Made by a program: the position numbers and the translations under genes. Positions 10,431 through 10,945 of a stretch of DNA of 64,000 nt are shown piece after piece; position 1 is the first letter of the stretch, and each line of letters begins with the position of its first letter. The notes below the pieces were generated by a model, which searched no databases, was not told the origin of the DNA, and worked only from the letters and a program-made list of their open reading frames with translations. Source of the DNA: Escherichia coli. Its GTDB lineage: Bacteria; Pseudomonadota; Gammaproteobacteria; Enterobacterales; Enterobacteriaceae. The DNA lies in NCBI RefSeq assembly GCF_003334785.1, contig NZ_QOWV01000003.1; one strand, written 5' to 3'.

Positions 10431-10661
10431 ATGGATCAGGCGCTACTGGACGGGGGTTATCGCTGTTATACCGGCGAAAAGATCGATGTCTATTTCAACA
10501 CTGCGATATGTCAGCATTCTGGCAATTGCGTACGTGGCAACGGCAAGTTATTTAATCTCAAACGAAAGCCGTGGATCATGCCGGATGAAGTCGACGTCGC
10601 CACTGTGGTTAAAGTGATTGATACGTGCCCGAGCGGCGCGCTGAAATACCGTCATAAATAA
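10431..10661 (+). CDS. yjdI: small Cys-rich protein (DUF1271, putative metal-binding)
   Basis: 76-aa [41 protein letters not shown]...[13 protein letters not shown] with four Cys. Confidence 0.8.
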
Positions 10662-10672
10662 GCGAGGGTAAA

Positions 10673-10945
10673 ATGGAAATACGCGAAGGCCACAATAAAT
10701 TTTACATTAATGACAAACAAGGCAAGCAAATCGCTGAAATTGTCTTTGTGCCGACCGGAGAGAATTTAGCGATTATCGAACATACCGATGTCGATGAAAG
10801 CCTGAAAGGGCAAGGGATTGGTAAACAGCTGGTTGCGAAAGTCGTGGAAAAAATGCGTCGGGAAAAACGAAAAATTATCCCATTATGCCCATTTGCGAAA
10901 CATGAATTTGATAAAACGCGGGAGTATGATGATATTCGCAGTTGA
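10673..10945 (+). CDS. yjdJ: small GNAT-like acetyltransferase-fold protein
   Basis: 90-aa [57 protein letters not shown]...; 11 bp downstream of yjdI. Confidence 0.8.

What the first reader, a model, noticed from the sequence alone, without database searches (positions are those of the whole stretch)
10431..10945. yjdI-yjdJ: four-Cys mini-protein immediately followed by a minimal GNAT-like protein
YjdI (76 aa) carries four cysteines arranged like a metal-binding knuckle, and YjdJ (90 aa) starts 11 bp downstream and resembles a stripped-down acetyltransferase fold. The tight spacing suggests an operon. The pair sits in the same small accessory-looking interval as ghoST, with no known function.
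Basis: inference. Interest (0 to 1): 0.35.

Follow-up and report, generated by a model that had tools for sequence, protein, structure and literature searches.

The report
Stress-induced ferredoxin plus mini-acetyltransferase operon
This is the known E. coli gene pair yjdI-yjdJ: a small iron-sulfur (ferredoxin-type, three-cysteine) protein and a 90-residue minimal acetyltransferase that stay adjacent across two bacterial phyla and are fused into one protein in some lineages, so they almost certainly work as one unit whose job is still unknown.

Summary
The two ORFs sit at 10431-10661 and 10673-10945, 11 nt apart. YjdI has four Cys. YjdJ is a 90-aa GNAT.

YjdI is not a four-Cys knuckle. It is a Pfam Fer4_19 ferredoxin-fold Fe-S protein with the signature CxHx3Cx32CP: three invariant Cys at 27, 33 and 66. 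Cys12 varies even among close enterobacterial relatives.

YjdJ is a COG2388/Acetyltransf_CG minimal GNAT. Its structure is already solved (PDB 5I0C), and it carries an invariant Cys72.

The operon idea is strongly supported:
- yjdJ follows yjdI directly in 81/81 enterobacterial loci, although the flanks differ.
- The same order occurs in Listeria, Enterococcus, Shimazuella and metagenomic relatives down to about 50% identity.
- Seven distinct clusters encode YjdI-YjdJ as one polypeptide.

A sigmaS-type -10 element upstream is conserved. The Listeria orthologues form a sigmaB-dependent operon.

The pair is core in E. coli (5308/5426 complete genomes), not accessory. ghoST accompanies it only in Escherichia.

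Best reading: a general-stress-induced, two-subunit Fe-S-coupled acyl-CoA-binding transferase or sensor. The coupling is shown; the chemistry is inferred. These are known, annotated genes of unknown function, so interest is modest.

The parts
10387..10396 (+). Putative promoter -10 element, GCTATGCTTA, sigmaS-type extended -10, about 44 nt before the yjdI start codon
   Evidence: The strict motif [GT]CTA[CT][AG]CTTA occurs in 40/81 enterobacterial loci. The relaxed motif CTAT[GTA][CA]T[TA] occurs in 66/81 at -38 to -55, within upstream sequence that is otherwise divergent, against 0.3% of random 30-nt windows. The match to the sigmaS consensus TCTATACTTAA rests on my own knowledge. The generic sigma70 scan found no + strand promoter here.
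10420..10428 (+). Shine-Dalgarno-like GAGGGAAGG for yjdI
   Evidence: Read from the sequence. GAGG is conserved at the same place in the 80 related loci.
10431..10661 (+). yjdI, 76 aa, a Fer4_19 (PF06902) ferredoxin-fold Fe-S protein
   Evidence: Pfam E 5.4e-30, covering 64/64 model positions. AF2 model with a 65-sequence alignment has pLDDT 92.1. The best PDB fold matches are mono-cluster ferredoxins.
10464..10466 (+). Cys12 codon, the non-conserved 'fourth' cysteine
   Evidence: Position 12 is K23/T17/A15/E8 in 91 family representatives. It is V17/C14/A8/L8 among 76-aa close relatives.
10509..10529 (+). C27-Q-H29-S-G-N-C33, the CxHx3C half of the cluster-binding signature
   Evidence: C27 90/91, H29 85/91, C33 91/91. 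The motif is as defined for Fer4_19 in bioRxiv 10.1101/2024.04.03.587993.
10626..10631 (+). C66-P67, the CP half of the signature, 32 residues after C33
   Evidence: C66 91/91, P67 90/91.
10662..10672 (+). 11-nt spacer carrying a GAGGG Shine-Dalgarno for yjdJ (10664-10668)
   Evidence: The intergenic distance is 8-11 nt in 72/81 related loci. The stop and start overlap in Enterococcus-type loci.
10673..10945 (+). yjdJ, 90 aa, a minimal GNAT (Acetyltransf_CG PF14542 / COG2388)
   Evidence: Pfam 2.1e-24. Identical to PDB 5I0C. 4e-19 to S. aureus 1R57/2H5M.
10805..10822 (+). K45-G-Q-G-I-G50, the degenerate acetyl-CoA 'P-loop-like' motif A
   Evidence: G46 is invariant, and G48/G50 are mostly conserved in alignment A4. 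The deviation at position 1 of the motif was noted for SACOL2532 in PMC7339202.
10886..10888 (+). Cys72 codon, the invariant cysteine of the K-I-x-P-L-C-P-F-A-K block
   Evidence: Invariant in 12 diverse YjdJ-type sequences, including the C-terminal halves of six fusion proteins.

Best explanation
yjdI-yjdJ is a self-contained bicistronic operon induced by general stress. Its two products act as one unit.

YjdI is a small ferredoxin-fold protein of the Fer4_19 family. It holds an Fe-S cluster on three cysteines (C27, C33, C66). The position of the canonical second cysteine is Ser/Ala. This predicts either a [3Fe-4S] cluster or a [4Fe-4S] cluster with an open or labile iron.

YjdJ is a minimal GNAT of the COG2388 / Acetyltransf_CG type. 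It keeps the (acetyl-)CoA-binding core and an invariant Cys72. It lacks the N-terminal arm and C-terminal strands that form the acceptor site in ordinary GNATs.

Shown: the two genes are linked in order, spacing, fusion and regulation.

Inferred: YjdI docks on the N-terminal side of YjdJ, where it sits in the fusion proteins and where the missing GNAT arm would be. There it makes acyl-CoA binding or acyl transfer through Cys72 depend on the redox or iron state of the cluster. The module would then be a redox-gated acyl-CoA-dependent transferase or sensor used in stationary phase and stress.
For: Family and fold:
- The same domain in the S. wolfei class E flavodiiron protein was shown by EPR and Raman to hold a [3Fe-4S] cluster at +70 mV, with the His not acting as a ligand. 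That preprint cites a thesis in which YjdI itself gave a similar UV-vis spectrum.

Linkage:
- yjdJ lies directly downstream in 81/81 loci from 80 other species, while no other neighbour is shared by more than 23 loci.
- The same order is found in Listeria fleischmannii, in Enterococcus, and in metagenomic relatives at 51-59% identity.
- In Shimazuella the upstream partner is a Fer4_19+CDGSH protein.
- Seven different 50%-identity clusters encode YjdI(N)-YjdJ(C) fusions with implied linkers of 2-19 residues.
- Pfam hits on record confirm the fusion architecture for P0250, P0263 and P0281. P0250 and P0263 were each seen on 2-3 independent contigs.

Regulation:
- A sigmaS-like -10 element is conserved.
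- The genes are induced in stationary phase and by acid in E. coli.
- Listeria lmo0133-lmo0134 is a sigmaB-dependent operon.

YjdJ chemistry:
- C72 is invariant.
- The S. aureus homologue was solved with the name 'Acetyltransferase, GNAT family'.
- From my own knowledge: Cort et al. 2008 and Tyler et al. 2006 reported CoA/acetyl-CoA binding by these minimal GNATs and no obvious acceptor site.
Against: - No direct evidence of a YjdI-YjdJ complex, and no evidence of any catalytic activity.
- The structure tool returns no coordinates, so no interface or Cys72-to-cluster distance could be measured.
- YjdJ overexpressed alone produced no new acetyl-lysine bands.
- The linkage is not universal. Fer4_19 relatives at about 43-44% identity lack a YjdJ neighbour, and a YjdJ homologue in Aneurinibacillus has no Fer4_19 neighbour.
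- Fer4_19 also pairs with CDGSH and flavodiiron domains. It may therefore be a generic electron-transfer module rather than a specific regulator.
- sigmaS dependence in E. coli is inferred from a motif and from growth-phase data, not from an rpoS mutant.
Confidence: 0.55

Rival explanations
1. YjdI is an ordinary electron-carrier ferredoxin. It supplies or removes electrons for redox chemistry carried out by, or next to, YjdJ. An example would be reduction of a CoA- or Cys72-linked disulfide or thioester. In this reading there is no sensing or gating role.
For: YjdI has a ferredoxin fold. The homologous domain in S. wolfei FDP_E is a redox-active [3Fe-4S] centre in an electron-transfer enzyme. 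Fer4_19 is fused to other redox modules, namely CDGSH domains. Neighbours in Firmicutes include glyoxalase, metallo-beta-lactamase-fold, OYE, pirin and nitroreductase genes.
Against: GNATs are not known to need electrons. No reductase or other redox partner is conserved next to the pair. Nothing in YjdJ suggests a redox cofactor.
Confidence: 0.2
2. YjdI is the macromolecular substrate of YjdJ, or YjdJ is its protective partner. YjdJ would acetylate YjdI (N-terminus or a lysine), or cap its open cluster site.
For: Strict pairing and fusion. The minimal GNAT lacks an obvious small-molecule acceptor site (Pfam family description and Cort et al. 2008, from my own knowledge). No proteome-wide acetylation was seen on YjdJ overexpression.
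Against: An enzyme permanently fused to a single-turnover substrate is unusual. There is no invariant lysine: K46 is R in most family members. The N-terminus of YjdI is variable in length and sequence.
Confidence: 0.1
3. The pair is a GNAT-type toxin-antitoxin module (small upstream antitoxin plus GNAT toxin, as in TacAT/AtaRT), in keeping with the ghoST system next door.
For: It is a small two-gene operon in which the upstream gene is smaller than a downstream GNAT. It lies beside a type V TA system and next to an island insertion site.
Against: - YjdI is an Fe-S ferredoxin-fold protein, not an RHH/DUF1778 DNA binder.
- YjdJ is half the size of GNAT toxins.
- YjdJ was not among the four GNATs whose overexpression inhibited growth.
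- Natural single-polypeptide fusions contradict toxin-antitoxin logic.
- The pair is single-copy, core and chromosomal in E. coli.
- ghoST is absent from 76 of 81 loci.
- There are no PADLOC hits.
Confidence: 0.02
4. The two genes are functionally unrelated neighbours that merely travel together.
For: Each family also occurs without the other.
Against: Order and spacing are conserved across Proteobacteria and Firmicutes while the flanks are unrelated. Seven independent fusion clusters exist. Co-regulation occurs in two phyla.
Confidence: 0.05

Closest known systems
Fer4_19 C-terminal domain of the Syntrophomonas wolfei class E flavodiiron protein (bioRxiv 10.1101/2024.04.03.587993)
   Same: Same Pfam family and the same CxHx3Cx32-33CP signature. 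That paper reports that the AlphaFold models superpose at 1.5 A over 72 residues and that the UV-vis spectra are similar.
   Different: There the domain is fused to a flavodiiron oxygen reductase and serves as an electron-transfer [3Fe-4S] centre. Here it is a free-standing 76-aa protein partnered with a GNAT.
Mono-cluster bacterial/archaeal ferredoxins (P. furiosus Fd 1SIZ/2Z8Q, M. tuberculosis Fdx 8AMP, R. palustris 4OV1, T. maritima 1VJW)
   Different: No detectable sequence similarity to any PDB chain. YjdI has an extra N-terminal segment of about 12 residues and a conserved His one position before the missing Cys. It also has invariant Y13, F41 and P47-W48, which are not ferredoxin features.
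COG2388 / Acetyltransf_CG minimal GNATs: S. aureus SACOL2532 (PDB 1R57, 2H5M), A. thaliana At1g77540, human NATD1
   Same: Same Pfam family. YjdJ is 4e-19 to 1R57 over its full length. Same size of about 90-100 aa, the same degenerate motif A, and the same conserved Cys in the KIIxxCxFAK block.
   Different: Whether those homologues have a YjdI-type partner was not determined here; the S. aureus and eukaryotic loci were not examined. The YjdI-linked subgroup has PLCPFAK where S. aureus has ASCSFAK.
Elp3 (radical-SAM Fe-S domain + GNAT/KAT domain)
   Same: To my knowledge the only well-studied case in which an Fe-S domain and an acetyl-CoA-binding GNAT domain act together in one protein.
   Different: YjdI has no CxxxCxxC radical-SAM motif and no TIM-barrel. 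At 76 aa it has a ferredoxin fold. This is an analogy of architecture only, not homology.
CDGSH-Fer4_19 fusion proteins of bacteria and archaea (PMC5859297)
   Same: The same Fer4_19 domain is used as an add-on to another small cofactor-binding module. 28 of the 141 family representatives inspected carry CDGSH motifs. In Shimazuella, such a CDGSH-Fer4_19 protein sits directly upstream of a yjdJ homologue.
   Different: The partner there is a [2Fe-2S] CDGSH domain rather than a GNAT.

Membership tests
Pfam Fer4_19 (PF06902) / COG3592 'YjdI' | Full-length match to the family HMM | tested here: met
   E 5.4e-30, residues 13-76 on model positions 1-64 of 64.
Pfam Fer4_19 (PF06902) / COG3592 'YjdI' | Signature CxHx3Cx32CP | tested here: met
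   C27-Q-H29-SGN-C33 ... C66-P67. The columns are 85-91 of 91 conserved.
Pfam Fer4_19 (PF06902) / COG3592 'YjdI' | Ferredoxin-like fold | tested here: met
Pfam Fer4_19 (PF06902) / COG3592 'YjdI' | Binds an Fe-S cluster; cluster type | not testable with these tools
   Literature only. A thesis cited reports YjdI spectroscopy, and the homologous S. wolfei domain holds a [3Fe-4S] cluster.
Canonical four-Cys [4Fe-4S] mono-cluster ferredoxin (CxxCxxC...CP) | Second cysteine of CxxCxxC, or another conserved fourth Cys ligand | tested here: not met
   Position 30 is Ser (family: A36/S29/V10). Cys12 is not conserved.
   Cys spacing is 14/5/32 with no CxxC. Only three Cys are conserved. There is no zinc-finger Pfam hit.
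GNAT superfamily, Acetyltransf_CG (PF14542) / COG2388 minimal GNAT | Match to the family HMM and to solved members | tested here: met
   PF14542 at 2.1e-24 over 80/80 model positions. Identical to 5I0C and 4e-19 to 1R57/2H5M.
GNAT superfamily, Acetyltransf_CG (PF14542) / COG2388 minimal GNAT | Conserved Cys near the acetyl-CoA site, and small size (about 90-100 aa) | tested here: met
   C72 is invariant in A4. Length is 90 aa. The location of the Cys next to the acetyl group is taken from the Pfam description and Cort et al. 2008 (my own knowledge).
GNAT superfamily, Acetyltransf_CG (PF14542) / COG2388 minimal GNAT | Motif A [QR]-x-x-G-x-[GA] | tested here: inconclusive
   K45-G-Q-G48-I-G50: positions 4 and 6 fit, but position 1 is K (R/K/G/S/N in relatives). 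The same deviation was reported for SACOL2532.
GNAT superfamily, Acetyltransf_CG (PF14542) / COG2388 minimal GNAT | Acetyltransferase activity | not testable with these tools
   The only indirect data: YjdJ overexpression gave no new acetyl-lysine bands.
Full-length GNAT (Acetyltransf_1-type, about 150-170 aa) | Complete fold, including the N-terminal alpha1-alpha2 arm and C-terminal strands | tested here: not met
   Aligns only to positions 31-91 of the 116 in PF00583. All NCBIfam hits are far below cut-off and cover only the central part.
Elp3-like radical-SAM + GNAT | CxxxCxxC radical-SAM motif and domain | tested here: not met
   No such motif in YjdI. The only Pfam hit is Fer4_19. The weak PFL-activase NCBIfam hit (E 0.006, 15.8 bits against a cut-off of 174) covers only the ferredoxin-like insert.
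GNAT-RHH toxin-antitoxin (TacAT/AtaRT/KacAT) | RHH/DUF1778 antitoxin, GNAT toxin of about 160-175 aa, growth arrest on toxin expression | tested here: not met
   YjdI is Fer4_19. YjdJ is 90 aa. It is not among the growth-inhibiting GNATs. Fusions exist. There is no PADLOC hit.

The most novel reading that the evidence does not exclude
The YjdI-YjdJ unit would be a new, non-radical-SAM class of Fe-S-dependent acyl-CoA enzyme or sensor. The open coordination site of YjdI's three-Cys cluster would be completed by YjdJ's invariant Cys72 or by the thiol of bound CoA. Cluster state ([3Fe-4S] versus [4Fe-4S], oxidised versus reduced) and acyl-CoA/CoA occupancy would then be read out against each other. 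This would link general-stress physiology to acetyl-CoA/CoA status or to iron and oxidant status.
Probability: 0.1. Interest if true: 0.7.

Novelty: already known. Interest (0 to 1): 0.33.

Why it matters
yjdI and yjdJ are among the remaining 'y-genes' of E. coli K-12. Both are named and family-assigned. One has a deposited structure, and the other has been examined spectroscopically.

This check makes three additions:
- It corrects the metal-site reading: a three-Cys ferredoxin-type Fe-S site, not a four-Cys knuckle.
- It gives concrete comparative evidence that the two proteins are one functional unit. The evidence is invariant order across two phyla, fusion proteins, and a conserved stress promoter.
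- It gives a testable idea of why a GNAT without an acceptor-binding arm exists.

If the coupling is real, it would give a function handle for the whole COG2388 family, which includes plant At1g77540 and human NATD1. It would also give Fer4_19 a second kind of partner besides CDGSH and flavodiiron domains.

As a genomic finding it is not new, and nothing here shows what the pair does.

Tried and rejected
- Single-sequence AlphaFold of YjdI was useless (pLDDT 43) and cost one of the two prediction jobs. The run with a 65-sequence alignment worked.
- The structure tool returns no coordinates or PAE. The planned prediction of a fusion protein, to measure the Cys72-to-cluster distance, was therefore abandoned.
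The narrower alignment returned only Enterobacteriaceae among the best 80 loci. Wider phylogenetic sampling had to come from 12 single-protein context look-ups.
- The sequence search of PDB with YjdI found nothing.
- Rfam found no RNA element in 9500-12500.
- The generic sigma70/terminator scan found no + strand promoter before yjdI and no terminator after yjdJ.
- NCBIfam gave only sub-threshold hits. PADLOC gave none.
- Literature searches for Acetyltransf_CG, NATD1, PF14542, 5I0C and COG3592 gave no functional study.
- The Tyler et al. 2006 paper is not held in the library.
- The toxin-antitoxin reading and the chance-adjacency reading were considered and rejected (see rivals).

Full report
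**1. What is in the sequence**

The window is E. coli K-12-like. The gene order is dcuR (7903-8622, -), dcuS (8619-10250, -), then on the + strand a 76-aa ORF at 10431-10661 and a 90-aa ORF at 10673-10945. ghoS, ghoT and lysU follow.

The two ORFs are separated by 11 nt, GCGAGGGTAAA, which contain a GAGGG ribosome-binding site. YjdI has four cysteines, at positions 12, 27, 33 and 66.

RefSeq names the genes '4Fe-4S mono-cluster protein YjdI' and 'GNAT family N-acetyltransferase'.

**2. YjdI is a three-Cys ferredoxin-type Fe-S protein, not a four-Cys knuckle**

*Family.* YjdI matches Pfam Fer4_19 (PF06902) end to end, with E 5.4e-30. A search of 1.84 billion cluster representatives found 1141 relatives.

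*Conserved residues.* In 91 representatives with full coverage:
- C27 is present in 90, H29 in 85, C33 in 91, C66 in 91 and P67 in 90.
- Among close 76-aa enterobacterial clusters, position 12 is V17/C14/A8/L8.

The signature C-x-H-x3-C-x32-C-P is the one described for this family in a 2024 preprint. That preprint showed by EPR and resonance Raman that the homologous domain of a Syntrophomonas flavodiiron protein holds a [3Fe-4S] cluster at +70 mV, with the His not acting as a ligand. It also cites a thesis in which E. coli YjdI gave a similar spectrum.

The Cys spacing (14/5/32, no CxxC) is not knuckle-like. C27 and C33 occupy the first and third positions of the classical CxxCxxC ferredoxin motif, and the middle Cys is replaced by Ser/Ala.

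*Fold.* YjdI has no sequence match in the PDB. An AlphaFold model built on a 65-sequence alignment is confident, with pLDDT 92.1.
- Its best Foldseek matches are single-cluster ferredoxins: 1VJW, 1FXR, 4OV1, 2Z8Q/1SIZ and 8AMP, at prob 0.82-0.98.

**3. YjdJ is a minimal GNAT whose structure is already solved**

- It matches Acetyltransf_CG (PF14542) at 2.1e-24. It covers only the central part of the general GNAT models.
- NCBIfam hits are all far below cut-off.
- Its exact sequence is PDB entry 5I0C, 'Uncharacterized protein YjdJ'. The S. aureus homologue (1R57/2H5M) matches at 4e-19.
- In an alignment of 12 diverse members, including the C-terminal halves of six fusion proteins, G46, K67, I68, C72 and A75 are invariant.
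- The acetyl-CoA motif A is degenerate at its first position, as reported for the S. aureus protein.
- Overexpressing YjdJ alone in an acetylation-'gutted' E. coli strain did not inhibit growth. It also did not produce new acetyl-lysine bands.

**4. The two genes are a unit**

A scan of one genome per species found 199 genomes with a YjdI relative. The best 80 were all Enterobacteriaceae.

*Adjacency within Enterobacteriaceae.*
- In all 81 loci (those 80 plus one more E. coli locus), yjdJ lies directly downstream. The spacer is 8-11 nt in 72 of them.
- The flanks are not conserved. dcuRS is present in 15 loci and ghoST in only 5, all Escherichia. 61 loci contain none of dcuRS, ghoST or lysU. 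No other neighbour family is shared by more than 23 loci.

*Outside the family.*
- The same order and tight spacing occur in Listeria fleischmannii.
- They also occur in an Enterococcus-type lineage, where stop and start overlap, and in two further metagenomic relatives at 51-59% identity.
- In Shimazuella, the upstream partner is a Fer4_19+CDGSH protein.

*Fusions.* Seven distinct 50%-identity clusters encode both proteins as one polypeptide. The order is always YjdI-N / YjdJ-C, with implied linkers of 2-19 residues. Three of these were checked against their contigs. All three carry both Pfam domains on record, and two were seen on two or three independent contigs.

*Limits of the linkage.*
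- Fer4_19 relatives at 43-44% identity lack a YjdJ neighbour.
- An Aneurinibacillus YjdJ homologue sits among pirin and MarR genes without any Fer4_19 gene.
- Of the 141 Fer4_19 representatives inspected, 28 are CDGSH fusions, an architecture already described in the literature.

**5. Regulation**

The generic sigma70 scan finds nothing before yjdI. However, GCTATGCTTA at 10387-10396 is conserved at about -44 from the start codon, within upstream sequence that is otherwise unalignable:
- the strict form is present in 40/81 loci;
- a relaxed form is present in 66/81 loci at -38 to -55, against 0.3% of random windows.

It resembles the sigmaS extended -10 consensus TCTATACTTAA (my own knowledge).

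Published data fit this reading:
- yjdI and yjdJ rise on entry to stationary phase in E. coli O157:H7 and after acid shift.
- The Listeria monocytogenes orthologues lmo0133-lmo0134 are a sigmaB-dependent operon by RNA-seq.
- lmo0134 is down in sigB mutants in a second study, and its protein is higher in the parent than in a strain lacking all four alternative sigma factors.

The pair therefore appears to belong to the general stress response in two phyla.

**6. Core or accessory?**

The 515-bp pair is present at >=80% coverage in 5308 of 5426 complete E. coli genomes, almost always on the chromosome. Plasmid hits are few and are mostly very large or mislabelled replicons. It is core.

The spot just after yjdJ is an insertion site. 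In SE15 a fimbrial usher operon follows yjdJ directly. A published tagB/tagC island lies between yjdI and yjdK (ghoS), bordered by duplicated yjdJ sequence. This explains two things: about 580 fewer genomes match the longer query, and some genomes have 2-3 matching places. ghoST is an Escherichia-specific neighbour, not a partner.

**7. How it most likely works**

*Shown.*
- The family and fold assignments.
- The three-Cys site.
- The invariant Cys72.
- The genomic coupling.
- The fusions.
- The conserved promoter motif.

*Taken from the literature.* Fe-S binding by the family, the sigmaB dependence in Listeria, and the lack of bulk lysine acetylation on YjdJ overexpression.

*Inferred.*
- The two proteins form a complex.
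- YjdI sits at the N-terminal side of YjdJ, as in the fusions. This is the place where ordinary GNATs carry the acceptor-binding arm that YjdJ lacks.
- The redox or iron state of the cluster controls acyl-CoA binding or Cys72-mediated acyl transfer, or is controlled by it.

I put about 0.85 on 'obligate functional partners' and about 0.25 on this particular mechanism. The quoted 0.55 is for the statement as a whole, with the mechanism flagged as inference.

*Rivals.*
- YjdI as a plain electron carrier for YjdJ-linked redox chemistry: 0.2.
- YjdI as the substrate or client of YjdJ: 0.1.
- Unrelated neighbours: 0.05.
- A GNAT toxin-antitoxin pair: 0.02. The evidence against it is the fold of YjdI, the size of YjdJ, the absence of toxicity, the fusions and the core status.

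**8. Comparison with what is known, and verdict**

Both genes are long-annotated members of known families. The closest relatives are:
- the Fer4_19 domain of the S. wolfei flavodiiron protein;
- [3Fe-4S]/[4Fe-4S] mono-cluster ferredoxins;
- the COG2388 minimal GNATs (SACOL2532, At1g77540, NATD1).

Elp3 is only an architectural analogy, because YjdI has no radical-SAM motif.

The finding is real and correctly located. Its metal-site and 'accessory' interpretations are wrong, and its operon interpretation is right. As a genomic feature it is already known. What remains open is the function. For that, the fusions, the cross-phylum linkage and the stress regulation give a clear experimental entry point. 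Interest is modest, at about 0.33.

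Noticed in passing
window 10387-10396: GCTATGCTTA, a sigmaS-type extended -10-like element about 44 nt upstream of yjdI. It is conserved in position in 66/81 enterobacterial loci, although the surrounding upstream DNA is not alignable. The generic sigma70 scan misses it.
   Followed up: yes
window 10946-11171 (yjdJ-ghoS spacer); L100 3696-6695: The region just after yjdJ is an insertion hotspot. In E. coli SE15 a fimbrial usher/chaperone operon follows yjdJ directly. The literature (PMC6592367) describes a tagB/tagC SPATE island here, bordered by duplicated yjdJ sequence. About 580 complete genomes keep the pair but differ downstream, and some genomes have 2-3 matching places.
   Followed up: partly
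L002-L081 vs window 11172-11669: ghoS-ghoT is found next to yjdIJ only in the 5 Escherichia loci out of 81, and dcuRS in 15. In 61 loci none of the E. coli neighbours is present within 4 kb.
   Followed up: yes
L082-L084 3546-4688; L099 2831-3916: An LtrA (PF06772, low-temperature-requirement A) gene lies immediately downstream of the yjdI-yjdJ pair in both Listeria fleischmannii and Shimazuella kribbensis. In Listeria the start overlaps the yjdJ stop, and an Nramp gene follows. It may be a third member of the operon in Firmicutes.
   Followed up: no
protein P0388: A 164-aa protein attributed to the myxozoan Thelohanellus kitauei is named 'Protein NATD1' in UniRef. It carries both PF06902 and PF14542 and is 83% identical to E. 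coli YjdJ. It is most likely enterobacterial contamination, with the two ORFs merged by the gene caller.
   Followed up: no
NZ_CP182145.1 (hit H1): In E. coli strain CUWW10 an IS1A element is inserted within the 921-bp dcuS-yjdI-yjdJ-spacer stretch, so the match is split into two pieces.
   Followed up: no
L097 (Aneurinibacillus migulanus), 299-3734: A YjdJ homologue (49% identity) without any Fer4_19 partner sits between pirin genes downstream of a MarR regulator and near a nitroreductase gene. This suggests a redox or electrophile-stress context for the minimal GNAT even when it occurs alone.
   Followed up: no
window 10702-11082 (- strand): A 126-aa ORF lies antisense to yjdJ. Similar antisense ORFs recur in the related loci (58 of 81 in the clustering). 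It is probably a by-product of conserved coding sequence on the other strand rather than a gene.
   Followed up: no
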